From NCBI GenBank assembly GCA_903834845.1, contig CAILKW010000142.1:18-64017 (forward strand): DNA of 64,000 bases. Reading direction: 5' to 3'. Every line of letters begins with the position of its first letter. The stretch's first letter is position 1. Source of the DNA: an uncultured Bacteroidia bacterium. Its GTDB lineage: Bacteria; Bacteroidota; Bacteroidia; Bacteroidales; Prolixibacteraceae. Both the position numbers and the translations under genes were made by a program. The notes beneath the pieces are model-generated. The model was not told where the DNA came from. It saw nothing but the letters and a program-made list of their open reading frames with translations, and searched no databases. This document shows, piece by piece, positions 11,959 to 22,707 of the stretch.

Positions 11959-12022
11959 TGTCCATGTCCACAGATTACCACATAAAATAAAAAAATCTGT
12001 GCTACTCTGTGTAATCGGTGAC
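11959..12022. repeat. Palindromic word-repeat element (CACAGAT family), imperfect
   Basis: TGTCCACAGATTAC (11965-11978) ... A-run ... GTAATCGGTGACA (12010-12022). Same layout as 511-580. Confidence 0.55.
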
Positions 12023-12113
12023 AAAAAAAAGCCGACAATATATCCACCAACATAAAAAGCAACAAAGTTATAATAATATCGTTGCAAGAGTTATCAGAAA
12101 ATTAAATTACTAT

Positions 12114-13571
12114 ATGAAACAAATCGAAAAACTTAAATATTTTTTTAGTGAAAAAATAATTCTTCATCCAATTCTAATTGGAATTTTGTTCATAACAACG
12201 TCATTATATTCTAACTGGTTGATTTCTACAAGTAATAATAAATTATTTTTTATTGTATTGGTTATGGTTTTTTGTGTTGCTGTTAATAGACTATCCAGAT
12301 CTTTGGTTAGAAATAGAATAAAAGCCTCACTTATCGCAACTTTATTTATTACAATTAATCTCTATTACAAGTATATTGAAAAAATATTATCTGAATTTAG
12401 CCTCTTTAAATGGTTTATGGATTTATTTATAAATGAAAGGTTTGGATGGTTTATTTTTGCTTCAATATACATTAGTTTTTTAGCTGTAGCTTTTATAATT
12501 AGCAAAACAAGAAAAAAACTTTTCAGTCTCAATCTTTACCTAAATGTGGTAATTAGCTTGTTTTTAGCTTACGAAGTCGGTAGTATAATCTTTACAAAGC
12601 CCTTCAATGTTGAATTAGTTAATACACCAAAACAGCAAGAAAAAAAATTAATTAATTCCTTGATTCTGGATAAACCCAACGTTTACTTTATAATATTAGA
12701 TGCTTACACAAGCTCTGAAAGTTTAAAAAAGTATTGGGCCTATGACAATTCTTCTTTCGAAAATTCACTCACTAAAATGGGCTTTTTCGTTACACATACC
12801 AGTAAATCAGATTATGATTTTACACCTTACTGCATGGCATCATACTTAAATATGTCTTTAATAAAAGTTTATAACATCCAATTGTTATCTCAAAGATGGA
12901 ATTGGCAAAAAGACCACGTTCTTAAATTAATAGAGAATAGTAGCCTTATTCAGCAATTTGTATCTTCAGGTTACAAATTTATTAATTATTCCATATTCAA
13001 TATCGGAAACGACAAAGCACTTTTTTATACTCCCTTTCCAAAAGGGAATGAACCCATAGCTGTTTTTTTTCAACAAACAATTTATCCATATATCAATTAT
13101 AAAATTAAACGATTCACTCAGTCCTCAGAACAATTCCCATCCTATCCAAATCTAAAATTTTTCAAGCTATTAAGTGAAAAATACCCATTGAAAAGTGAAG
13201 TTCCAAAGTTCTATTATGCGCATATTTTAATGCCACACCAGCCATTTGAATATGATGAAAACGGAAACAAAATGAGTTATGAATACAGTACTTTAATAAA
13301 AAATGATAGTTATCTAAAACTATTACGCTATACAAATTCAATGGTTATTAAAACAATACAAAATATCCTGACTAATGAAAAGAAGAAGCCTTTTATAATT
13401 ATTCAAGGTGATCACGGTTATCGTTTTTTAGAAAATGTTGATACTAAAATTCAAAAAACTGAAGGTCATACAATTTTCAGTGCTTATCTCTACCCCAACG
13501 AACTTAAGATACAACTAAATGATTCAATTAAACCAATCGAGGCACTTTCATTATTATTTGATGAGAAATGA
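12114..13571 (+). CDS. Membrane-anchored sulfatase-like (alkaline-phosphatase superfamily) transferase/hydrolase
   Basis: Multi-TM N-terminal half followed by FIILDAYTSSESL, LMPHQPF and IIIQGDHGYRF core motifs. Start at ATG 12114 is preferred over the word-repeat-derived upstream extension. Confidence 0.65.
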   Translation: MKQIEKLKYFFSEKIILHPILIGILFITTSLYSNWLISTSNNKLFFIVLVMVFCVAVNRLSRSLVRNRIKASLIATLFITINLYYKYIEKILSEFSLFKWFMDLFINERFGWFIFASIYISFLAVAFIISKTRKKLFSLNLYLNVVISLFLAYEVGSIIFTKPFNVELVNTPKQQEKKLINSLILDKPNVYFIILDAYTSSESLKKYWAYDNSSFENSLTKMGFFVTHTSKSDYDFTPYCMASYLNMSLIKVYNIQLLSQRWNWQKDHVLKLIENSSLIQQFVSSGYKFINYSIFNIGNDKALFYTPFPKGNEPIAVFFQQTIYPYINYKIKRFTQSSEQFPSYPNLKFFKLLSEKYPLKSEVPKFYYAHILMPHQPFEYDENGNKMSYEYSTLIKNDSYLKLLRYTNSMVIKTIQNILTNEKKKPFIIIQGDHGYRFLENVDTKIQKTEGHTIFSAYLYPNELKIQLNDSIKPIEALSLLFDEK

Positions 13572-13624: not shown

Positions 13625-14398
13625 ATGAAAGTTCTGATCTTAGCAGGAGGCCTTGGCTCACGGCTCTCAGAAGAAACAACCCTAAGGCCAAAACCAATGG
13701 TAGAAATTGGTGGAAAACCAATTCTTTGGCACATTATGAAAATATATTCACATTTTGGGTATAACGAATTTATCATTCTGTGTGGTTACAAAGGATATAT
13801 GATCAAAGAATTTTTCTCCCATTATTTTCTTCATACATCCGATATGACAATTGACATGACAACCAATACAATTACCCATCATAATAATCATTGCGAACCA
13901 TGGAAAGTAACCCTTGTGGATACAGGGCTCGACACAATGACTGGTGGGCGTATTAAAAAGGTACGGGATTATATTGGTAACGTACCCTTTATGCTTACTT
14001 ATGGTGATGGTGTTGGAGATGTTGATATTTCTAAGCTGGTTAAATATCATCAATCTCACGGTAAAGCAATAACAATGACCGCTGTACAACCTGAAGGAAG
14101 GTATGGTTCTTTGGTTCTTAACGAAAATGAAGAGGTAACCTCATTTCAGGAAAAACCAAAGGGAGATGGTGCATGGATCAATGCAGGTTATTTTGTTTGC
14201 CAACCTGAAGTATTCGACTATATTCCAGATGGAGATCAAATTATTTTTGAACGAGAACCTTTGGAAGGTTTAGCAAGTGCCTGTCAACTTCAAGCTTATA
14301 AACATGACGGATTATGGAAACCCATGGATACCCAACGCGACAAAAGCCAATTGGAAGATTTGATTGAAAAAGGGAAAGCGCCCTGGATACGCTGGTAG
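13625..14398 (+). CDS. rfbF: Glucose-1-phosphate cytidylyltransferase
   Basis: MKVLILAGGLGSRLSEETTLRPKPMVEIGGKPILWHIMKIYS.. at 257 aa is the typical RfbF/DdhA signature and length. Confidence 0.9.
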   Translation: MKVLILAGGLGSRLSEETTLRPKPMVEIGGKPILWHIMKIYSHFGYNEFIILCGYKGYMIKEFFSHYFLHTSDMTIDMTTNTITHHNNHCEPWKVTLVDTGLDTMTGGRIKKVRDYIGNVPFMLTYGDGVGDVDISKLVKYHQSHGKAITMTAVQPEGRYGSLVLNENEEVTSFQEKPKGDGAWINAGYFVCQPEVFDYIPDGDQIIFEREPLEGLASACQLQAYKHDGLWKPMDTQRDKSQLEDLIEKGKAPWIRW

Positions 14399-14445
14399 CG
14401 ATTACGAATTACACGAATTAAAACGAATTTTACGAACAAATTACA
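14399..14445. repeat. ACGAATT/AATTCGT word array (spacer after rfbF)
   Basis: ATTACGAATTACACGAATTAAAACGAATTTTACGAAC holds three ACGAATT words at 9-11 nt spacing. It is followed by CACAG-type words and an 8-bp hairpin (AAAGCACT..AGTGCTTT, about 14491-14520). Confidence 0.7.
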
Positions 14446-14550: not shown

Positions 14551-15627
14551 ATGGAAAATCTTTTTGATAGAATATTTACCAATCGCAAGGTTTTGATCAC
14601 AGGGCATACCGGTTTTAAAGGATCGTGGTTGTGTTTATTATTGAATAAATTGGGTGCTGATGTTTTTGGTTATGCGTTAGACCCTCCTACTAACCCTAGT
14701 TTGTTCGTGGAAGCAAAAATTAACGAAATCATGACTTCCTTTATCGGCGATATTCGTGATTACGAAAATCTATTCAAAGTCATTCAGCAAGTTCAACCTG
14801 AAATTGTTATCCACATGGCTGCGCAACCGTTGGTTAGGGAATCATACAAGAAACCTGTTGAAACCTATGCGATCAATGTGATGGGAACAGTACACTTTCT
14901 TGAAGCATGTCGGCATACAAAAAGTGTAAAGGCCATTGTAAATGTAACAACCGACAAATGTTACGCAAATAAAGAGTGGCATTGGGGTTATCGTGAAAAT
15001 GAGCCAATGGGAGGTTACGATCCTTATTCAAACAGCAAAGGATGTTCGGAGCTTGTAACTTCTTCGTACCGCAATTCGTATTTTAATCCTGCAAAATACT
15101 CCGAACATGGTGTGGCTGTCGCTTCAGCTCGTGCAGGTAATGTTATTGGAGGTGGCGATTGGGCTAATGACAGACTTATCCCAGATTTTATCCGCTCCAT
15201 ATCCCAAGGTGAAAAAGTAAAAATCCGCAGTCCTTTTGCAATTCGTCCATGGCAACATGTATTAGAACCTTTAACAGGCTACCTTACTTTAGCTGCAAAA
15301 CTATTTACCGAAGGCGTAAAATATGCCGAGGGGTGGAACTTCGGACCCGATGATGAAGATGCCAAAAACGTGGAGTGGATCACATTAACAATCTGCGAAC
15401 TTTGGGGTGAGGGTGCCTCTTTCAGCATCGACAAAGACCCTCAGCTCCACGAGGCCAATTACCTGAAACTAGACTGTTCAAAATCTAAAGCCGAACTGGA
15501 TTGGACTCCCAAATGGAACATCCAAACAACTTTACAATCCATCGTAGAGTGGAACAAAGCTTATTTGCGTGGTGAAAACATGCGTACAGTATCGGAATAC
15601 CAAATAAATCAATATTATAACAATTAA
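14551..15627 (+). CDS. rfbG: CDP-glucose 4,6-dehydratase
   Basis: VLITGHTGFKGSWL Rossmann start, YSNSKGCSE (YxxxK) and about 358 aa. Start at ATG 14551 (MENLFDR). Confidence 0.9.
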   Translation: MENLFDRIFTNRKVLITGHTGFKGSWLCLLLNKLGADVFGYALDPPTNPSLFVEAKINEIMTSFIGDIRDYENLFKVIQQVQPEIVIHMAAQPLVRESYKKPVETYAINVMGTVHFLEACRHTKSVKAIVNVTTDKCYANKEWHWGYRENEPMGGYDPYSNSKGCSELVTSSYRNSYFNPAKYSEHGVAVASARAGNVIGGGDWANDRLIPDFIRSISQGEKVKIRSPFAIRPWQHVLEPLTGYLTLAAKLFTEGVKYAEGWNFGPDDEDAKNVEWITLTICELWGEGASFSIDKDPQLHEANYLKLDCSKSKAELDWTPKWNIQTTLQSIVEWNKAYLRGENMRTVSEYQINQYYNN

Positions 15628-15686
15628 AAACGAACCACTTCGTGTAATTCGTAATAATTCGTGTAATTCGTATAATTCGTAACAAT
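15628..15686. repeat. AATTCGT word array
   Basis: Four AATTCGT words start at 15646, 15656, 15665 and 15674, a 9-10 nt phasing. They lie immediately upstream of the antitoxin-like ORF. Confidence 0.8.
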
Positions 15687-15941
15687 ATGTTGGCAATAAA
15701 AGCAAATTATCATAATGGCATAATTACTTTTCTCGAAGCCATGCCAGAGAAAGTAAGGAATGCACGGTTGACCATTGTAGTGGAACCGGAGGAACAGGAC
15801 AATAGTTTTATCCCATCACAAGATTTTAAAAGTACACAAATTGATAGTGAAGTTGAATTTGAAGCCATGGGACTGAGTGCGCTTTTTGATGACGAAAACG
15901 ATAAAAACATTAATTGGGAGGATTATTTTGGACTCAAATAA
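15687..15941 (+). CDS. Small antitoxin-like protein (DUF104-like N-terminus)
   Basis: 84 aa, MLAIKANYHNGIITFLEAMPEKVRNARLTIVVEPE resembles the i.A.Y.NG.i..LE.. antitoxin family, with an acidic tail. Lies upstream of and overlapping a MazF-like module. Confidence 0.5.
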   Translation: MLAIKANYHNGIITFLEAMPEKVRNARLTIVVEPEEQDNSFIPSQDFKSTQIDSEVEFEAMGLSALFDDENDKNINWEDYFGLK

Positions 15942-16284
15942 ATTCAACATCGGCGAAATTGTCTTGATCGATTTCCCCTATTCTAATCTAAAAGGCTCTA
16001 AATATAGGCCTGCTGTTATCATTGGAGTAACTGACATTCAGAACGATTTAATCGTTGCATTTGTTACATCAGAAATTGAAAATTATAGTTGGAGCGAATA
16101 TGCTGTTAAGTTCAGCCAGGCACATTTACAATCTGGTACAATTAAACAAGAAAGTATCATACGCTGCGACAAAATGATCACCATCAGTCCGCAACGTATT
16201 TCACTCAGAAAAGTTGGGACATTAAAGAAAACAAAAACTGCAGAAGTTCTCCGGAAATTGTCTCGAATCAGTGTCAATGGGGTA
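15877..16284 (+). CDS. MazF/PemK-like toxin module with no stop codon, continuing in frame into rfbH
   Basis: NIGEIVLIDFPYSNLKGSKYRPAVIIGV... is the MazF/PemK N-terminal signature. Possible starts are ATG 15877, ATG 15889 and TTG 15928. The frame runs uninterrupted into ATG 16285. Confidence 0.6.
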
Positions 16285-17550
16285 ATGGAAACAATTCATG
16301 CCAAACAAGACTTTATCCCTGGCAAATCACGGGTTAATTATGCCGGACGTGTATTCGATGAGAAAGAAATCAACAACGCTGTCAATGCTTCTCTTGATTT
16401 CTGGCTCACTGAAGGACGTTTCTCTGAAGAATTCTCCGAAAAGATTGCAGAATTTATAGGTGTGGAACATGTATTATTGACCAATTCGGGTTCTTCAGCC
16501 AATTTGCTTGCGTTCTCGGCACTGACTTCCGAAAAACTTGGCGACAAACGATTACGTCCGGGAGATGAAGTGGTATCAGTTGCAGCCGGGTTTCCTGCTA
16601 CCGTTACGCCGATTATCCAAAATGGTTTGGTTCCTGTGTTTGTTGATGTTGAGATACCTACCTACAATATTGATGTAGAGATGATGCGTAAAGCGATCAC
16701 GCTTAAAACCAGATGTATCTTTATTGCACATACCTTGGGGAATCCATTCAATATCGATGCCGTAATGCAATTGGCCAAAGAACACGATTTGTGGGTAATC
16801 GAAGACAATTGCGATGCATTTGGAAGTGAGTACAACGGTAAGAAGACGGGATCTTTTGCTCATCTTTCAACCATATCCTTCTATCCTGCCCATCATATCA
16901 CCACAGGCGAAGGAGGTGCAATTTGTACAAATGATCCTCAATTGGCTCAATTAGTTCGTGCTTTCCGCGACTGGGGACGTGATTGCTATTGTGCAGGCGG
17001 TGAAAACAACACTTGCGGCAAACGTTTCTCGCAGTTGTTTGGAAACCTTCCTTTCGGATTCGATCATAAATATGTTTATTCCGAAATTGGTTATAACCTA
17101 AAGATGACAGATATACAAGCTGCAATTGGTGTAGAACAAATCGAAAAACTACCATATTTCTGCGAACGCCGGAAAGCAAATTTTCAGGAATGGGAACGAA
17201 TTTTCACGAAGTATCATGATTACTTTATTTTGCCGAAAGCAACCGAACGAGCCGATCCGGCATGGTTTGCATTTATTGTAACTCTTAAGGAAACCGCTCC
17301 TTTTAAACGTGATGATTTAACAGGTCACCTAAATGCAAAGCTAATTGAAACCCGTAATCTGTTTGCAGGCAACATCACCAAACAACCAGGCTTCATGGGC
17401 AAAAACTGGCGCATTGCCGATCATTTGAATAATACTGACTACATAATGAATAACACTTTCTTCCTTGGTACATACCCTGGACTAACGAAAGATATGTTTG
17501 ATTATGCTGAAGGCGTACTCGATTCATTTGTTCAAGATTTCACGAATTAG
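16285..17550 (+). CDS. rfbH: CDP-6-deoxy-D-xylo-4-hexulose 3-dehydrase (E1, RfbH/DdhC)
   Basis: From METIHAKQDFIPGKSRVNYAGRVFDEKEINNAVNASLDFWLTEGRF.. for about 421 aa. DegT-type PLP/PMP fold with the RfbH-typical N-terminus. It is part of the composite ORF 15877..17550. Confidence 0.85.
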   Translation: METIHAKQDFIPGKSRVNYAGRVFDEKEINNAVNASLDFWLTEGRFSEEFSEKIAEFIGVEHVLLTNSGSSANLLAFSALTSEKLGDKRLRPGDEVVSVAAGFPATVTPIIQNGLVPVFVDVEIPTYNIDVEMMRKAITLKTRCIFIAHTLGNPFNIDAVMQLAKEHDLWVIEDNCDAFGSEYNGKKTGSFAHLSTISFYPAHHITTGEGGAICTNDPQLAQLVRAFRDWGRDCYCAGGENNTCGKRFSQLFGNLPFGFDHKYVYSEIGYNLKMTDIQAAIGVEQIEKLPYFCERRKANFQEWERIFTKYHDYFILPKATERADPAWFAFIVTLKETAPFKRDDLTGHLNAKLIETRNLFAGNITKQPGFMGKNWRIADHLNNTDYIMNNTFFLGTYPGLTKDMFDYAEGVLDSFVQDFTN

Positions 17551-17570
17551 GACGAATTACACGAATCGAA

Positions 17571-17945
17571 ATGCCAGAGATTATCTACAAAGAAGAAAGC
17601 TACAAGATCATAGGGGCATGTATGGAAGTCCATAAAAAGCTTGGTTGTGGGTTTCTTGAAAGTGTATATTCTGAGGCACTCGAAATAGAATTTAAGAAGT
17701 CCGAAATACCCTACGAGCGTGAAAAAAAATTGCCCGTATTTTATGGAGACGTTCCGCTTAAAAAGTATTTCAAAGCCGACTTCGTTTGTTATAATTCAAT
17801 CATCCTTGAACTGAAGGCAACAAAGTTTATTATTGAAGCTGATCACCGTCAAACGGTTAATAATGTAAAAGCCACCAAATTTCAACTTGGTTTGCTTATC
17901 AATTTCGGTACTCCATCATTGACCTATAAACGAATCGTCAATTAG
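17571..17945 (+). CDS. GxxExxY protein (PD-(D/E)XK-like small nuclease-fold family)
   Basis: 124 aa with GCGFLESVY (G-x-x-E-x-x-Y) and D...ELK (ADFVCYNSIILELKA). Flanked on both sides by ACGAATT/AATTCGT words. Confidence 0.8.
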   Translation: MPEIIYKEESYKIIGACMEVHKKLGCGFLESVYSEALEIEFKKSEIPYEREKKLPVFYGDVPLKKYFKADFVCYNSIILELKATKFIIEADHRQTVNNVKATKFQLGLLINFGTPSLTYKRIVN

Positions 17946-17978
17946 TCTAATTCGTGTTCGTGTTATTCGTTTAAATTC

Positions 17979-18671
17979 ATGAAATCAATGCTACAAAAAA
18001 AATATAAATCAGCTGTTGTATCCGTAATAAATCCATTCTCAGGTATCTATACTTTGGAAATTAAATCCTTGGGAAACAAATTCAAATACTCGCCTGGCCA
18101 ATTTCTTCACATTGCGATTGATTCAGATTACGATGGTACCAGCCAATGGCCCGATTCCCGATGTTTCTCGATGCAAAGCAATCCCGACGAAGAAACCATC
18201 CGGATTACTTATGCGGTAAAGGGATCATTTACCAAACAGATGGAACAAAACTTTAAAGTAGGTTCCGAAGTCTGGTTGAAACTACCTTATGGCGATTTGT
18301 TTTCCCAGCCACACAACAAAATTAATACTGTATTTATTGCTGGCGGCACAGGCATCACCCCGTTCCTCTCCCTTTTTACACACGAATCTTTCAACGAATA
18401 CCTCAACCCAAAAATTTACCTCGGGTTTCGTTCCCAGTCTTACAACATATATCAGGATGAACTCGTCAGTTCGAGAAATTCGTCAAAATTCGTGAAATTG
18501 TATAACGAGGACACCGATGGAATTATTGACATCCAAAGCATCTTCAACGAGAATGGCCCGGAACCCAATTATTTTATCTCCGGACCACCGGCAATGATTA
18601 AAGCCTTCAAAAACACGCTGATCGGTAAAAAAGTTCCAGCAGGAAATATACTTACCGATGATTGGGAGTAA
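17979..18671 (+). CDS. FNR-like FAD/NAD(P)-binding oxidoreductase, candidate E3 reductase for RfbH (lacks a ferredoxin domain)
   Basis: 230 aa. FLHIAIDS..RCFSM (FAD-binding RxxS-like) and VFIAGGTGITPFLS (NAD-binding). Sits directly after rfbH. Confidence 0.7.
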   Translation: MKSMLQKKYKSAVVSVINPFSGIYTLEIKSLGNKFKYSPGQFLHIAIDSDYDGTSQWPDSRCFSMQSNPDEETIRITYAVKGSFTKQMEQNFKVGSEVWLKLPYGDLFSQPHNKINTVFIAGGTGITPFLSLFTHESFNEYLNPKIYLGFRSQSYNIYQDELVSSRNSSKFVKLYNEDTDGIIDIQSIFNENGPEPNYFISGPPAMIKAFKNTLIGKKVPAGNILTDDWE

Positions 18672-18776: not shown

Positions 18777-19097
18777 ATGACGAGCAGTGACAGAGAAATA
18801 TTAAGCCAAAAACTGATTTCATGCAAAAGCTTTTGGTCTTTTAAAATACCACAGGAAATCCCTGATGATATTTTAATTGAAAAAACTCTGATATACCTTG
18901 ATCTGGTGGATATTAATGTATTGTTTAAACTATTTTCATCAAAAAAGATAAAACATATTTGGCGGTCCCGTGTCGTGATTCAGGACGATTATTACCATAC
19001 GCTAAATAAACTGCTTGCATGGATGTATTTTGAAATAAAAAACCCAGACCGTTACATAAAAATAACAATTCGTAACCACATTAACCATCTTTCATGA
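18777..19097 (+). CDS. Small protein upstream of an AbiEii-type NTase, putative cognate antitoxin
   Basis: 106 aa. SFWSFKIPQEIPDDILIEKTLIYLDLVDINVLFKLF resembles the LFWDvd..ld...fIIeRvL.yG family that I recall upstream of such NTases. The stop overlaps the next start (ATGA). Confidence 0.45.
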   Translation: MTSSDREILSQKLISCKSFWSFKIPQEIPDDILIEKTLIYLDLVDINVLFKLFSSKKIKHIWRSRVVIQDDYYHTLNKLLAWMYFEIKNPDRYIKITIRNHINHLS

Positions 19098-19741
19098 CGG
19101 CCTTAGCACCTAACACTGGTAAACTTTTCGATAAAGTCGCCGCTCTGGAATGTATAAAGCCTTATTTCCTGGTGGGAGGTACCGCTCTTTCTCTGCAACT
19201 AGATACCCGTCTTAGCGAAGATTTGGACTTCATGAACTGGAAGACACAGAAAAGGCAAAAACAAGAGGTTGATTGGTTTGCTATTGAAAAAGAATTATCA
19301 ACAATAGGAACTATTGAAGCCCACGATATTTGGGATTTTAATCACGTTGAATTTTTGGTTGCCGGAGTCAAATTCTCATTTTACAATTCCATGAAATCCT
19401 CTCCGATTGCAGCTCCGGTTTACTTAAAAGACAATTTACAACTTGCCGATATTGAAGCAATCGGTGCAATGAAAATGGAAGTAATGTTGCGCAGAAGCAA
19501 TTTTCGCGATTATTACGATATCTATGCTATACTTCAACATGGAATAGATTTTAAAAAGCTGGTTGATTTATCATTAAATTATTCGGGGCACATTTTAACA
19601 ACCAAAAATCTACTTGCTATACTAATCAATAGTTCACGTTTTAATATTGATCAAGGATTTGAACTGTTAAACCCAAAATATAAGGTAGGCCCTGCCGAAA
19701 TTGAGGCTTATCTGAAAATAAAGATTAAAGCATCATTTTGA
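19094..19741 (+). CDS. AbiEii/AbiGii-family nucleotidyltransferase toxin-like protein
   Basis: YFLVGGTALSLQLDTRLSEDLDFM is the AbiEii (DUF1814) N-terminal signature. 215 aa. Confidence 0.7.
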   Translation: MTALAPNTGKLFDKVAALECIKPYFLVGGTALSLQLDTRLSEDLDFMNWKTQKRQKQEVDWFAIEKELSTIGTIEAHDIWDFNHVEFLVAGVKFSFYNSMKSSPIAAPVYLKDNLQLADIEAIGAMKMEVMLRRSNFRDYYDIYAILQHGIDFKKLVDLSLNYSGHILTTKNLLAILINSSRFNIDQGFELLNPKYKVGPAEIEAYLKIKIKASF

Positions 19742-19976: not shown

Positions 19977-20990
19977 ATGATTAATTCTGTACACACAAAT
20001 AATTTTGGGCCTTTAACTGATTTACAGTGGAATAAATTGGGGAATATTAACTTGATATTAGGCCCTAACAGTTGTGGAAAAACATTCTTGCTCAAAGCAT
20101 TGTACAGTGCAATCCGCACACTCGAAGATTACCGAAGGGGTGATGATCAGCGGACTGCCTCCGAAATCTTGCAAGAAAAATTATATTGGACTTTCCAATC
20201 CGATAAAATCGGAGATATAGTAACTAAAGGAGCTGAAACGCCCCTTTCATTTAAAATGCAAATTGACAACCACGATTTTCGATATTCATTTGGACGCGAT
20301 ACTGTGAAACAGATCTCTGAATTGGAAAACCATAATCCAAAGCGTGAAAGCAACTCCATATTCCTACCCGCTAAAGAAGTCTTGTCTATTCACCATATCA
20401 TCCTGAAGTCCAGAGAAATTGACAAAGTATTTGGATTTGACGATACCTATCTCGACTTGGCAAGGGCTATAAGGCAGTCACCGAAAAAAGGAAAAAACTT
20501 TGATGAATTTGCAAGGTCTCGGCAGAAATTAGAGGAAATGATTGGTGGCAAAATTGAATTTGATGAATTAACAGGCAAATGGCTTTTCAAAAAAGGCAAT
20601 GCAAAATTTACAATTGGCTCAACTGCTGAAGGGATAAAAAAAATTGCGATTGTTGACACGTTATTAGGAAACCGATATCTTGATGACAAATCGGTTGTAT
20701 TTATTGATGAACCCGAATCTGCCTTGCATCCTGATGCAATTGGCACATTGCTTGATATTGTGGCTCTTCTGGCCGAAAGGGGAATTCAGTTTTTTATGGC
20801 AAGTCACTCCTATTTTGTAGTCAAGAAACTTCTACTCATTGCATTGGAAAAGAACTTGTCCATCCCTGTAATTAGTTTTCAGGAAAATAGGTGGAATATG
20901 GCAGATCTAAGAGAAGGAATGCCATCGAATTCAATTGTCCAGGCCTCAATCGACCTCTACATGAAAGAGGTTGAAATTCAAACTACCTGA
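19977..20990 (+). CDS. ABC/SMC-like P-loop ATPase (AAA_21-like)
   Basis: Walker A LILGPNSCGKTF, Walker B VVFIDEPESALHP and H-loop-like MASHS. 337 aa with no transmembrane or transporter partner. Confidence 0.75.
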   Translation: MINSVHTNNFGPLTDLQWNKLGNINLILGPNSCGKTFLLKALYSAIRTLEDYRRGDDQRTASEILQEKLYWTFQSDKIGDIVTKGAETPLSFKMQIDNHDFRYSFGRDTVKQISELENHNPKRESNSIFLPAKEVLSIHHIILKSREIDKVFGFDDTYLDLARAIRQSPKKGKNFDEFARSRQKLEEMIGGKIEFDELTGKWLFKKGNAKFTIGSTAEGIKKIAIVDTLLGNRYLDDKSVVFIDEPESALHPDAIGTLLDIVALLAERGIQFFMASHSYFVVKKLLLIALEKNLSIPVISFQENRWNMADLREGMPSNSIVQASIDLYMKEVEIQTT

Positions 20991-20992
20991 TC

Positions 20993-21502
20993 ATGGTAAC
21001 AGTAGTAGAATCGGGAATGACTTTTGGTCCTTTCCATGAAGATCAATTTTTTTATATAGAAAAATGTATTGTTTACCGGGCAATTCAAGACCAGGTAAAA
21101 ATGGTCGAATTTGTTTTACATAAACCGAATGGAGTTGATGGACAAATATGGTTGATTGAGGCGAAACAAAGCTCACCTCAACCTAAAAATCAAGCAGATT
21201 GGGAGTTTTATTTGGGTGAACTAAAAGAAAAATTTGAAAATGGATTAAGCCTCTTTCTTGCTTTGTGTTTGAATAGGTATTCCGATCCGGATTTTCACGA
21301 AGCAATAAGAACTGTTGATATGGGGAACATACAATTCAAAATTACTTTAGTTATAAAAGGTCATAAAATCGAATGGTTACCTCCTCTTAAAGATGCACTT
21401 CAACAGAGACTTTTACCCCTTTGCAAATCCTTAAATCTTACACCCAACCCCGTGTTGGTAGTTAACGATGAAATGGCACGCGCGAAAGGATTAATCACTT
21501 AA
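20993..21502 (+). CDS. Uncharacterised 169-aa partner of the ATPase, possible PD-(D/E)XK-like fold
   Basis: Starts 2 nt after the ATPase stop. MVEFVLHKPNGVDGQIWLIEAKQS gives a D/E ... E-x-K arrangement. I recognise no family. Confidence 0.5.
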   Translation: MVTVVESGMTFGPFHEDQFFYIEKCIVYRAIQDQVKMVEFVLHKPNGVDGQIWLIEAKQSSPQPKNQADWEFYLGELKEKFENGLSLFLALCLNRYSDPDFHEAIRTVDMGNIQFKITLVIKGHKIEWLPPLKDALQQRLLPLCKSLNLTPNPVLVVNDEMARAKGLIT

Positions 21503-21552
21503 TTCGTGCAATTCGTGCAATTCGTTTTAATTCGTGTAATTCGTATTTTATA
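21503..21552. repeat. AATTCGT word array
   Basis: AATTCGTGCAATTCGTGCAATTCGTTTTAATTCGTGTAATTCGTATTTTATAAC carries five phased words. The same 3' junction (..GTAATTCGTATTTTATAACAAAACAAATAC) recurs at 22684-22712. Confidence 0.8.
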
Positions 21553-21947: not shown

Positions 21948-22038
21948 ATTCGTGAAATTCCTGCCTACGGTAGGCAGACGTTTTGATTCGTGTAATCCGT
22001 ATTTACTAAATATGCGTATCTTAGCAAAAAAAAATGAT

Positions 22039-22628: not shown

Positions 22629-22707
22629 TAATTCAATTCTAATCAGCCTTTGCAAAAATTCGTGCCATTCGTTTTAATTCTTGTAATTCGTATTTTATAA
22701 CAAAACA

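What the first reader, a model, noticed from the sequence alone, without database searches (positions are those of the whole stretch)
15687..17550. MazF-like toxin module has no stop codon and is fused in frame to rfbH
A DUF104-like/MazF-like TA pair is wedged between rfbG and rfbH.

The MazF-like reading frame (NIGEIVLIDFPYSNLKGSKYRPAVIIG...) is about 119 codons from TTG 15928. It runs straight into the ATG (16285) that begins a normal-length RfbH, reading ..RISVNGV|METIHAKQDF... There is no intervening stop, so the ORF track reports one 557-aa protein.

Three readings are possible:
- The toxin is translated as an N-terminal extension of an essential sugar enzyme.
- rfbH is expressed by internal initiation.
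- The junction is a very recent insertion scar.

A toxin physically or translationally tied to an O-antigen enzyme would be an unusual addiction arrangement.
Basis: seen in the sequence. Interest (0 to 1): 0.7.

Follow-up and report, generated by a model that had tools for sequence, protein, structure and literature searches.

The report
Conserved MazF toxin–RfbH enzyme fusion
A MazF-type toxin domain is joined in frame to the sugar enzyme RfbH and preceded by a small antitoxin-like gene; this is not an error or a fresh scar, because the same three-part arrangement recurs in O-antigen sugar operons of several bacterial phyla and I found no paper describing it.

Summary
From TTG 15928 a 119-codon PemK/MazF domain runs without a stop into RfbH, ending at 17550. 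An 84-aa gene (15687-15941) overlaps its start by 14 nt.

It is not a sequencing error or a recent scar. The same order, rfbF-rfbG-small ORF-MazF::RfbH (531-553 aa), appears in about 25 loci that I inspected. These come from Bacteroidota, Geobacter/Desulfuromonadaceae/Syntrophales, Verrucomicrobiota and Pseudomonadota, and in dozens of protein clusters. Most of them have no Met at the junction.

- **Junction:** Stand-alone RfbH proteins (437-440 aa) start about 18 residues upstream of Met-16285. The MazF C-terminal helix and the RfbH N-terminal helix are merged into one.
- **Selection:** The MazF domain (dN/dS 0.04-0.13) and the small partner (0.06-0.22) are under purifying selection. The positions that align with the MazF catalytic Arg and Thr/Ser are kept.
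- **Mobility:** The partner plus MazF domain behave as a cassette exchanged by recombination (89-97% identity against 72-83% for the flanks in one pair).

Best reading: a MazEF-like pair hard-wired into the dideoxyhexose operon, with RfbH made only as the fusion. Toxin activity is inferred, not shown. I rate it a new variant of a known kind, of moderately high interest.

The parts
13625..14398 (+). rfbF, glucose-1-phosphate cytidylyltransferase (operon context)
   Evidence: NCBIfam TIGR02623 equivalog, 408 bits. Syntenic in all related loci.
14551..15627 (+). rfbG, CDP-glucose 4,6-dehydratase (operon context). The ORF is open from GTG 14512; the likely start is ATG 14551.
   Evidence: NCBIfam TIGR02622 equivalog, 502 bits. 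Syntenic.
15636..15680 (+). Intergenic array of 9-bp TAATTCGTG-type repeats upstream of the small ORF. They also occur in other intergenic regions of the window, so they are probably not specific to the module.
   Evidence: 11 matches in the window against 0.17 expected.
15687..15941 (+). 84-aa antitoxin-like partner (AT). It has a small N-terminal domain, an acidic linker, and a C-terminal tail ..FDDENDKNINWEDYFGLK. Its stop overlaps the start of the fusion by 14 nt.
   Evidence: Conserved immediately upstream of every fusion examined. The family has 184 clusters, all about 84-85 aa, unnamed and without a Pfam domain. dN/dS 0.06-0.22.
15916..15922 (+). GGGAGGA, a Shine-Dalgarno-like run inside the W-E-D codons of AT, 5 nt before TTG 15928
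   Evidence: Read from the sequence. The same TGGGAGGA...TTGG context is kept in Bacteroidales, Geobacter, Desulfuromonadaceae and one Verrucomicrobia locus.
15928..16230 (+). MazF/PemK-fold domain of the fusion (aa 1-~100). TTG start. R27-P28 and T47-S48 lie at the positions that align with the MazF catalytic residues.
   Evidence: Pfam PF02452, E 1.4e-15. AF2 model, pLDDT 87. Foldseek top hits are all MazF structures, TM 0.67-0.79. Alignment with E. coli MazF, B. subtilis MazF and Kid. Invariant residues G9 P17 R27 P28 D40 K82.
16228..16296 (+). Shared junction helix (aa 101-123). It serves as the MazF C-terminal helix and continues as the RfbH N-terminal helix. It contains Met-16285 (aa 120).
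   Evidence: Single helix H101-123 in both AF2 models. The Pfam PemK match reaches aa 114 while the NCBIfam RfbH match starts at aa 104. Alignment with stand-alone RfbH N-termini.
16237..17550 (+). RfbH / E1 (CDP-6-deoxy-D-xylo-4-hexulose-3-dehydrase) domain of the fusion, including the stop at 17548-17550
   Evidence: NF011936, 661 bits, aa 104-536. About 50% identity to E1 structures 3bcx/3bb8 in the Foldseek alignment, with the AHH and CYC..C motifs aligned.
17571..17945 (+). GxxExxY / PDDEXK_3 gene. This is a neighbour and not part of the module, because its position varies between related loci.
   Evidence: TIGR04256, 137.6 bits. PF13366. Variable position.
17979..18671 (+). 230-aa FNR-like FAD/NAD-binding reductase, the probable electron donor for RfbH (operon context)
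   Evidence: Pfam NAD_binding_1 and FAD_binding_8. Conserved downstream of both fused and unfused RfbH.

Best explanation
The 540-aa product from TTG 15928 is a genuine, conserved two-domain protein. A MazF/PemK-fold domain is spliced helix-to-helix onto a complete RfbH (E1 dehydrase).

Shown:
- The architecture recurs across several phyla together with the 84-aa upstream partner, always between rfbG and the RfbH body.
- Both the MazF domain and the partner are under purifying selection.
- The partner plus MazF domain move between operons as one recombining cassette.

Inferred, expression: the fusion is translated from TTG 15928, coupled to the partner gene through the 14-nt overlap and a GGGAGGA run 5 nt upstream. 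RfbH has no conserved start of its own, so it is made only as the fusion. Met-16285 is a lineage-specific residue inside the junction helix.

Inferred, function: the pair still works like MazE/MazF. The partner's acidic, Trp-containing C-terminal tail would mask the RNA groove of a MazF dimer carried on the RfbH dimer. The domain would remain a latent endoribonuclease, so a cell making RfbH must also keep making the partner.

The fusion would shield the toxin gene from nonsense and frameshift decay, because such mutations also abolish RfbH. It would also tie toxin dose to expression of the dideoxyhexose operon.

My confidence is about 0.9 for the architecture and expression part and about 0.45-0.5 for retained toxin activity.
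For: - **No stop:**
- **Domain identity:** Pfam PemK E 1.4e-15. The RfbH equivalog scores 661 bits over aa 104-536. The AF2 N-domain model has pLDDT 87 and its Foldseek top hits are all MazF structures.
- **Recurrence:** continuous fused ORFs were found in 15 of the 16 rfb-linked loci returned by the scan of species-representative genomes. All of them show the order rfbF-rfbG-AT-fusion. The exception, L014, has the RfbH part continuing in another frame.
- **Abundance:** 76 of the top 120 protein clusters are fused, at 524-550 aa. NCBI names them simply RfbH; they include the isolate Microbacter margulisiae.
- **Reverse check:** starting from the partner family, three further distant loci again hold the fusion next door.
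- **Junction:** stand-alone RfbH N-termini (MTDHKQLRKEIIAKTIEYYQARF..EFIPGKS) align with aa 104-128 of the fusion.
- **Selection:** dN/dS is 0.04-0.13 for the MazF domain and 0.06-0.22 for AT.
- **Catalytic positions:** R27 is invariant and T/S47 is kept in all three N-domain subtypes.
- **Partner tails:** the tails are acidic with one invariant Trp, and they differ between toxin subtypes.
- **Nearest annotated relatives:** ordinary PemK/MazF toxins on plasmids at 30-36% identity, and about 110-aa stand-alone proteins.
- **Mobility:** the cassette is 89-97% identical between L006 and L007, where flanking genes are 72-83%. Fused and unfused RfbH bodies interleave in the tree.
Against: - No RNase activity, toxicity or partner binding has been measured.
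- The partner matches no known antitoxin family and no DNA-binding domain.
- In several loci the partner gene abuts or overlaps rfbG. The pair therefore has no promoter or operator of its own, which is unlike a classical autoregulated type II module.
- Conserved Arg-Pro and Thr/Ser could be structural rather than catalytic.
- The Kid-like R-x-D motif of subtype A is lost in subtypes B and C.
- The monomer AF2 model cannot show whether a MazF dimer is compatible with the RfbH dimer. The model is weak at aa 126-165.
- Free RfbH from Met-16285 cannot be excluded in this lineage.
Confidence: 0.6

Rival explanations
1. Domesticated module. The MazF-fold domain is no longer a toxin. Together with the small acidic partner it acts as a regulatory, assembly or oligomerisation device for RfbH, for example by gating E1 activity or its contact with the reductase. 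This would resemble the non-toxic MazF-like domains reused in other proteins.
For: - The pair is fully integrated into the rfb operon with no promoter of its own; the partner overlaps the end of rfbG in L026 and L028.
- The connection is a rigid shared helix rather than a flexible linker.
- The partner has no recognisable antitoxin or DNA-binding domain.
- The pair shows strong purifying selection and is found across several phyla.
- 'MazF-like domain' wording appears in a paper on a CRISPR SAVED-Lon system found. I did not read the paper.
Against: - The positions that align with the catalytic Arg and Thr/Ser are kept in all three divergent subtypes.
- The partner tail has the acidic-plus-Trp character of MazE tails and differs between toxin subtypes, as cognate pairs do.
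- Close RfbH orthologues work without the module, so it is not needed for catalysis.
- The cassette is swapped between lineages like a selfish or defence element.
Confidence: 0.28
2. Two proteins from one ORF. In this lineage RfbH is made mainly by internal initiation at ATG 16285, or the fusion is cleaved after translation. MazF and RfbH would then act as separate proteins.
For: - A Met occupies this position in the window and in its closest relatives L003, L004 and L005 (GVMETIH, GMMETIH, GAMATTH).
- A G-rich run precedes it.
Against: - Most fusions have no Met there: I, F, Y or other residues in L006-L011, and none in the Geobacter, Verrucomicrobia or Pseudomonadota loci.
- A 421-aa product would lack the roughly 18-residue N-terminal helix present in all stand-alone orthologues.
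- The junction is predicted as one continuous helix, not a linker.
- No conserved start signal was found.
Confidence: 0.07
3. Artefact or decay. The stop codon of an ordinary MazF gene was lost through a sequencing error or a very recent mutation or insertion. One candidate is an extra G in the GGGG run 16279-16282, which would otherwise give TAATG overlapping the RfbH start.
For: An out-of-frame TAA (16283-16285) overlaps ATG 16285 next to a G4 run.
Against: - Homologues keep the same reading frame with different nucleotides at this site (GGAATGATG, GGCGCTATG, GGCATATAT...).
- The fusion is conserved across several phyla.
- A protein identical to the window's own product is already on record in the collection (P0004, 28 member sequences on 2 contigs).
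- dN/dS is far below 1.
- The ancestral RfbH start lies upstream of 16285.
Confidence: 0.02

Closest known systems
MazE/MazF (PemI/PemK, Kid/Kis) type II toxin-antitoxin modules
   Same: - MazF fold (Foldseek TM about 0.7 to S. aureus, B. subtilis and M. tuberculosis MazF) and a Pfam PF02452 match.
- Arg and Thr/Ser at the positions that align with the catalytic residues.
- The small upstream partner gene overlaps the toxin start.
- The partner ends in an acidic, Trp-containing tail. From memory, this resembles the E. coli MazE C-terminus ..HENIDWGEPKDKEVW.
   Different: - The toxin has no stop and is fused through a shared helix to a 420-440-aa enzyme.
- The partner has no AbrB, RHH or other DNA-binding match.
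- There is no promoter or operator of its own; the pair sits inside the rfb operon.
- Activity is untested.
Stand-alone RfbH / E1 dehydrase (AscC; PDB 3bcx, 3bb8)
   Same: - Full-length equivalog match (661 bits).
- About 50% identity to the solved E1 structures, with the PMP-site His pair and the Cys motif aligned.
- Same operon partners: rfbF, rfbG and an FNR-like reductase.
   Different: - It carries about 100 extra N-terminal residues forming a MazF domain.
- Its own start codon and the first turns of the N-terminal helix are replaced by the cassette.
PhoH2 with the upstream phoAT gene in mycobacteria (a PIN toxin-family RNase domain fused to a PhoH ATPase and preceded by an antitoxin-like ORF). 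Recalled from memory, not checked here.
   Same: A toxin-family RNase domain fused N-terminally to a larger enzyme, with a small antitoxin-like gene overlapping its start.
   Different: - The toxin fold differs (PIN rather than MazF).
- The fused partner there is an RNA helicase/ATPase that works with the RNase. Here the partner is a sugar-nucleotide enzyme with no evident link to RNA.
Single-chain or domain-fused toxin systems (CapRel, EzeT) and reused MazF-like domains (CalpT of type III CRISPR). Recalled from memory; a 'MazF-like domain' paper appeared but I did not read it.
   Same: They show that toxin folds can be built into larger proteins and controlled in cis or by a partner.
   Different: Those fusions join toxin to antitoxin or to signalling domains. 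None, to my knowledge, joins a MazF domain to a biosynthetic enzyme within a glycan operon.

Membership tests
PemK/MazF toxin family (PF02452) | Sequence match to the family profile above the curated threshold | tested here: met
   57.9 bits against a cutoff of 23.1, aa 9-114 to profile 3-108/109. 903 library proteins at E<=1e-3; most of the 150 listed are about 110 aa.
PemK/MazF toxin family (PF02452) | MazF/Kid/CcdB-type beta-barrel with a C-terminal helix | tested here: met
   AF2 model with pLDDT 87, seven strands plus helix 101-122. The 50 listed Foldseek hits are all MazF-family structures, TM 0.64-0.79, prob 1.0.
PemK/MazF toxin family (PF02452) | Catalytic Arg (E. coli R29 / B. subtilis R25) and Thr/Ser (T52 / T48) present | tested here: met
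   R27 is invariant across 49 sequences of three subtypes. T47 or Ser is at the aligned position in every subtype. The reference sequences and residue numbers are from memory.
PemK/MazF toxin family (PF02452) | Sequence-specific endoribonuclease activity and growth inhibition relieved by the partner | not testable with these tools
   Needs expression and RNA-cleavage assays.
PemK/MazF toxin family (PF02452) | Free-standing protein of about 110 aa | tested here: not met
   No stop before 17548. Homologues are 531-553 aa.
Classical autonomous type II TA operon | Antitoxin with a recognisable DNA-binding domain (AbrB, RHH, HTH, Phd) | tested here: not met
   No Pfam or NCBIfam hit for seven partner proteins even at E<=5. 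A profile search of PDB found nothing significant. A fold-level search of the partner was not done.
Classical autonomous type II TA operon | Own promoter/operator, making a separate transcription unit | tested here: not met
   The partner gene overlaps the rfbG stop in L026 and L028, and starts 20-60 nt after it in L012, L005 and L008. In the window the gap is 59 nt, filled by a repeat array found in other intergenic regions too.
Classical autonomous type II TA operon | Tight gene pair with antitoxin first, overlapping the toxin start | tested here: met
   14-nt overlap in the window. The pair overlaps or is closely adjacent in every fused locus examined (L017: 5-nt gap).
RfbH / E1 dehydrase (NCBIfam NF011936) | Equivalog-level profile match over the full length | tested here: met
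   661 bits against a cutoff of 423, profile 5-437/440.
RfbH / E1 dehydrase (NCBIfam NF011936) | Active-site His in place of the aminotransferase Lys, and the Cys motif of the iron-sulfur site | tested here: met
   FYPAHHITTGEGG and RDWGRDCYCAGGENNTCGKRF align with the same motifs of 3bcx. The roles of these residues are from memory of the E1 literature.
RfbH / E1 dehydrase (NCBIfam NF011936) | CDP-hexose operon context (rfbF, rfbG, reductase) | tested here: met
   No Pfam hit at any threshold tried. The N-terminal pattern MLAIKANY.NG.I resembles the family only by eye.

The most novel reading that the evidence does not exclude
The partner-plus-MazF unit is an in-frame, exchangeable cassette that plugs into the N-terminal helix of RfbH. 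It makes the cell dependent on continued expression of the dideoxyhexose (O-antigen or capsule) operon.

If operon expression collapses, through phage shut-off, phase-off switching or polar mutation, the short-lived partner would disappear. The long-lived enzyme-tethered RNase would then arrest the cell. This would be a toxin that polices, or senses attack on, a surface-glycan pathway. The three divergent cassette types would have been swapped at one site under diversifying selection.
Probability: 0.25. Interest if true: 0.85.

Novelty: new variant of a known kind. Interest (0 to 1): 0.65.

Why it matters
Toxin-antitoxin toxins are normally small free proteins on mobile DNA. Here a MazF domain is welded by a shared helix to a core enzyme of 3,6-dideoxyhexose synthesis, which builds a major surface antigen and phage receptor. 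It keeps its partner gene across several phyla and is exchanged between operons as an in-frame cassette.

- **If the domain is still an RNase:** this would be a new way for a toxin to persist and be dosed. It could not decay without killing the enzyme, and it would link growth control or abortive infection to glycan-operon expression.
- **If it is domesticated:** this would be a clear case of a toxin fold recruited to regulate a metabolic enzyme.

Either way, hundreds of database entries named only 'RfbH' hide an unannotated toxin-like domain, and an unnamed 84-aa protein family accompanies it. The question can be tested with simple expression assays, and a cultured carrier (Microbacter margulisiae) exists.

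Tried and rejected
1. **Homopolymer error.** An extra G in GGGG 16279-16282 would otherwise give ..NG-TAA overlapping ATG. Rejected, because homologues keep the frame with unrelated bases at that site.
2. **GxxExxY/PDDEXK_3 gene (17571-17945) as a third member of the module.** It follows the fusion in the window, L006, L007, L021 and one type B locus. Rejected, because it sits between rfbF and rfbG in L003 and L011 and is absent in L005 and L008.
3. **'Stand-alone' MazF next to rfbG as a natural unfused state.** L014 is a frameshifted reading in which RfbH continues in another frame. In L001/L002 a 23S_rRNA_IVP gene follows the MazF stop, which looks like an insertion that interrupted the fusion.
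4. **DUF104 or any other named family for the partner.** No hits.
5. **First homologue search with the 119-aa part alone.** It gave only 3 fragments. The full-length query was needed.
6. **Foldseek on the full-length model.** It returned only E1 and aminotransferases, so I modelled the N-domain separately.
7. **Promoter and terminator scan around the junction.** Nothing above background. The scan is not suited to Bacteroidota promoters.
8. **Phage origin.** No relative was found in viral contigs.
9. **Plasmids.** They hold only ordinary stand-alone PemK/MazF toxins at 30-36% identity.
10. **Literature.** Eight full-text searches and three papers opened found nothing on a MazF/PemK-RfbH fusion.
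11. **Single or multiple origin of the three N-domain subtypes.** Unresolved. BLAST places type C nearer to free toxins than to type A. Against that, the partners share an N-domain and a tail plan.
Full report
**Observation**

The ORF list gives one 557-aa ORF at 15877..17550. TTG 15928 is in frame, and 119 codons later comes ATG 16285 with no stop between them (..LSRISVNGV|METIHAKQDF). Pfam places PemK_toxin on aa 9-114 of the first 119 residues (E 1.4e-15) and DegT_DnrJ_EryC1 on the rest. The NCBIfam RfbH equivalog scores 661 bits. The upstream genes are rfbF and rfbG by equivalog models. The 84-aa ORF 15687..15941 ends 14 nt inside the fusion ORF. The label 'DUF104-like' could not be verified, because this protein hits nothing in Pfam or NCBIfam.

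**Error or scar?**

My first idea was a homopolymer error. A G4 run at 16279-16282 is followed by an out-of-frame TAA that overlaps the ATG. Comparative data rule this out.

- A scan of one genome per species with the MazF part returned 18 loci. In 15 of the 16 rfb-linked loci the MazF-like frame runs on into RfbH, giving ORFs of 533-657 aa or ORFs cut only by contig ends.
- These loci come from Bacteroidales (Mariniphaga, Sunxiuqinia and others), Geobacter, Desulfuromonadaceae, Verrucomicrobiota and a Pseudomonadota MAG.
- The nucleotides at the junction differ between loci while the frame is kept. Most loci have no Met there (for example ISVDGIYNKIHQ).
- The one exception, L014, is a frameshifted reading in which RfbH continues in another frame. 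The two Poribacteria hits are ordinary free toxins outside rfb operons.
- In L001/L002 the MazF ORF ends early and a 23S_rRNA_IVP gene follows, which looks like an insertion that broke a fusion.
- A full-length protein search found dozens of 90%-identity clusters of 524-550 aa carrying both Pfam domains. Where they are named at all, they are called 'lipopolysaccharide biosynthesis protein RfbH'. They include the cultured Microbacter margulisiae. A protein identical to the window's own product is already on record in the collection (P0004, 28 member sequences on 2 contigs).

**Where the two domains meet**

Close stand-alone RfbH orthologues (82-89% identical over the enzyme part) are 437-440 aa. 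They begin MTDHKQLRKEIIAKTIEYYQARF..EFIPGKS, which aligns with aa 104-128 of the fusion.

The Pfam PemK match runs to aa 114 and the RfbH equivalog match starts at aa 104. Both AlphaFold models draw one continuous helix over aa 101-123. So the MazF C-terminal helix and the RfbH N-terminal helix are one and the same.

Met-16285 (aa 120) lies inside this helix. A protein started there would be 421 aa and would lack about 18 residues that every stand-alone orthologue has. A Met at this position is confined to the window and its nearest relatives L003-L005.

DNA comparison with an unfused locus places the extra material at about 15622-16308. Homology stops at the rfbG stop codon and resumes at the codons for DFIPG.

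**The partner gene**

Every fused locus has a small ORF immediately upstream, usually overlapping the start of the fusion.

- In the window's subtype it is 82-85 aa, with a conserved tail E.EF..IGL..FFD..DDKN.NWE.YFGLK.
- A profile search finds 184 clusters, nearly all 84-85 aa, unnamed and without a Pfam domain.
- Three distant members checked for context (a Syntrophales MAG, a Pseudomonadota MAG and a hydrothermal-vent contig) each sit between rfbG and a PemK::DegT fusion of 534-553 aa. In two of them the partner overlaps the end of rfbG.
- An unfused locus has no such ORF, only a 72-bp spacer.

The TTG start with GGGAGGA 5 nt upstream (inside the W-E-D codons of the partner) is kept in Bacteroidales, Geobacter, Desulfuromonadaceae and one Verrucomicrobia locus. 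Other lineages use ATG nearby.

**Is the N-domain really MazF, and is it maintained?**

- The N-domain model (pLDDT 87) matches S. aureus, B. subtilis and M. tuberculosis MazF structures at TM 0.67-0.79.
- An exhaustive library search gives 903 relatives; most of those listed are proteins of about 110 aa at 30-40% identity. On plasmids the nearest relatives are annotated PemK/MazF toxins.
- Among Bacteroidia fusions there are three N-domain subtypes, only 21-30% identical to each other. RfbH bodies, by contrast, stay about 78-90% identical, for example 78% between the window and the type C locus L021.
- Across all three subtypes G9, P17, R27, P28, D40 and K82 are invariant. The positions that align with E. 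coli MazF R29/T52 and B. subtilis R25/T48 hold Arg and Thr/Ser throughout (reference sequences from memory).
- Nei-Gojobori estimates give dN/dS of 0.04-0.13 for the MazF domain, 0.06-0.22 for the partner and 0.01-0.02 for RfbH.

The N-domain is not a decaying relic.

**Mobility**

- Between L006 and L007, nucleotide identity is 72-78% over rfbF and rfbG and about 77-83% over the RfbH body. It is 89-97% over the roughly 600 bp that hold the partner and the MazF domain, and the right-hand boundary falls at the end of the MazF domain.
- In an NJ tree of RfbH bodies, the three fused subtypes and the unfused proteins are interleaved.
- One partner (L011) combines the N-domain typical of subtypes B and C with the tail of subtype A.

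The partner plus MazF domain therefore behave as a cassette that is exchanged in frame at the rfbG-rfbH junction. Whether the three subtypes share one origin is unresolved. BLAST puts type C nearer to free toxins, but the partners share a common plan.

**How it most likely works**

Shown: a conserved two-domain protein with a conserved, co-inherited small partner inside the CDP-dideoxyhexose operon.

Inferred: translation starts at TTG 15928, coupled to the partner, and RfbH is produced only as the fusion. By analogy with MazE/MazF, the partner's acidic Trp tail would cover the RNA groove of a MazF dimer. Both MazF and E1-type enzymes are homodimers (established knowledge), so a dimer-on-dimer arrangement is conceivable, but I could not model it.

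Retained catalytic positions, type-specific partner tails and persistence of the partner in every fused locus favour a still-active, partner-controlled RNase. I put this at about 0.45-0.5. Fusion would protect the toxin gene from nonsense and frameshift decay and tie its dose to the operon.

The main rival, at about 0.28, is a domesticated non-toxic regulatory pair. This is favoured by the lack of a promoter of its own, the lack of any DNA-binding domain in the partner, and the rigid helix junction. Internal initiation or processing gets about 0.07. Artefact gets about 0.02.

**Comparison with known systems**

As a fold and sequence family, the N-domain is a member of PemK/MazF. As a system, it fails two features of a classical type II module: a free-standing toxin and an autoregulated transcription unit of its own. 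The enzyme part is a full member of RfbH/E1.

The nearest concept I can recall is mycobacterial PhoH2 with phoAT, a PIN domain fused to an ATPase behind an antitoxin-like ORF. That comparison is from memory and was not checked here.

Eight full-text searches and three opened papers, including the 2009 comparative survey of type II systems (PMC2701414), gave nothing on a MazF/PemK-RfbH or DegT fusion. The architecture is visible in precomputed domain tables but appears undescribed.

**Verdict**

This is a real, conserved and apparently unreported arrangement: a new variant of a known kind. Interest is 0.65.

Noticed in passing
window 14404-14420, 15636-15680, 17552-17568, 17939-17955, 21500-21544, 21984-22000, 22675-22691: Arrays of a 9-bp unit (TAATTCGTG and variants, on both orientations) fill intergenic spacers of this gene cluster: 11 matches against 0.17 expected. 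Related loci carry other short intergenic repeat families in the same places, such as CACAGAGT/ACTCTGTG and CACAAAGT. Their function is unknown; they may be footprints of the small mobile ORFs seen here.
   Followed up: partly
window 17571-17945; L003 3190-3561; L011 2428-2664; L006 4640-4984; L021 7692-8063: A GxxExxY / PD-(D/E)XK (PF13366) gene sits after rfbH in some operons, between rfbF and rfbG in others, and is absent in yet others. It looks like a small ORF that hops between intergenic spacers of otherwise syntenic operons.
   Followed up: partly
window 18777-19741 and 19977-20990: Just downstream in the same polysaccharide cluster are an AbiEii-type nucleotidyltransferase toxin (19094-19741), preceded by an overlapping 106-aa ORF, and an AAA_21/AAA_15 ATPase. 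Related rfb loci also collect TA genes: ParE and Xre-RES in L025, a PIN pair in L026, and MNT/HepT in L028. These glycan operons may be hot spots for TA and defence genes.
   Followed up: partly
window 17979-18671: The reductase that follows RfbH is a 230-aa FNR-like FAD/NAD module with no match to a ferredoxin domain. From memory, the classical E3 partner is about 330 aa and includes a [2Fe-2S] domain. This short form is conserved next to both fused and unfused RfbH.
   Followed up: no
L001 565-951 and L002 22-831: In two metagenome contigs the MazF ORF ends at 128 aa with an unrelated C-terminus, and a 23S_rRNA_IVP/bAvd gene follows. This looks like a fusion interrupted by insertion of another small mobile ORF. 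The contigs end before any RfbH could be seen.
   Followed up: partly
L011 3949-4203: This partner protein is a chimera. Its N-terminal half matches that of subtype B/C partners (MQAIKRIIP..NIPESFG..) and its C-terminal tail matches subtype A (..DDKNINWEDYFGIK). This shows domain shuffling within the partner family.
   Followed up: partly
L014 6001-7926: In this Verrucomicrobiae MAG the RfbH part switches reading frame more than once downstream of the MazF domain. This may be assembly indel error or a pseudogene. It should not be counted as a natural unfused form.
   Followed up: partly
window 12018-13571: A 517-aa membrane protein with a weak sulfatase-like domain (Pfam E 3.3e-5, just under the gathering score) lies directly upstream of rfbF. 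It may be a phosphoethanolamine- or glycerophosphate-transferase-type enzyme belonging to the glycan cluster.
   Followed up: no
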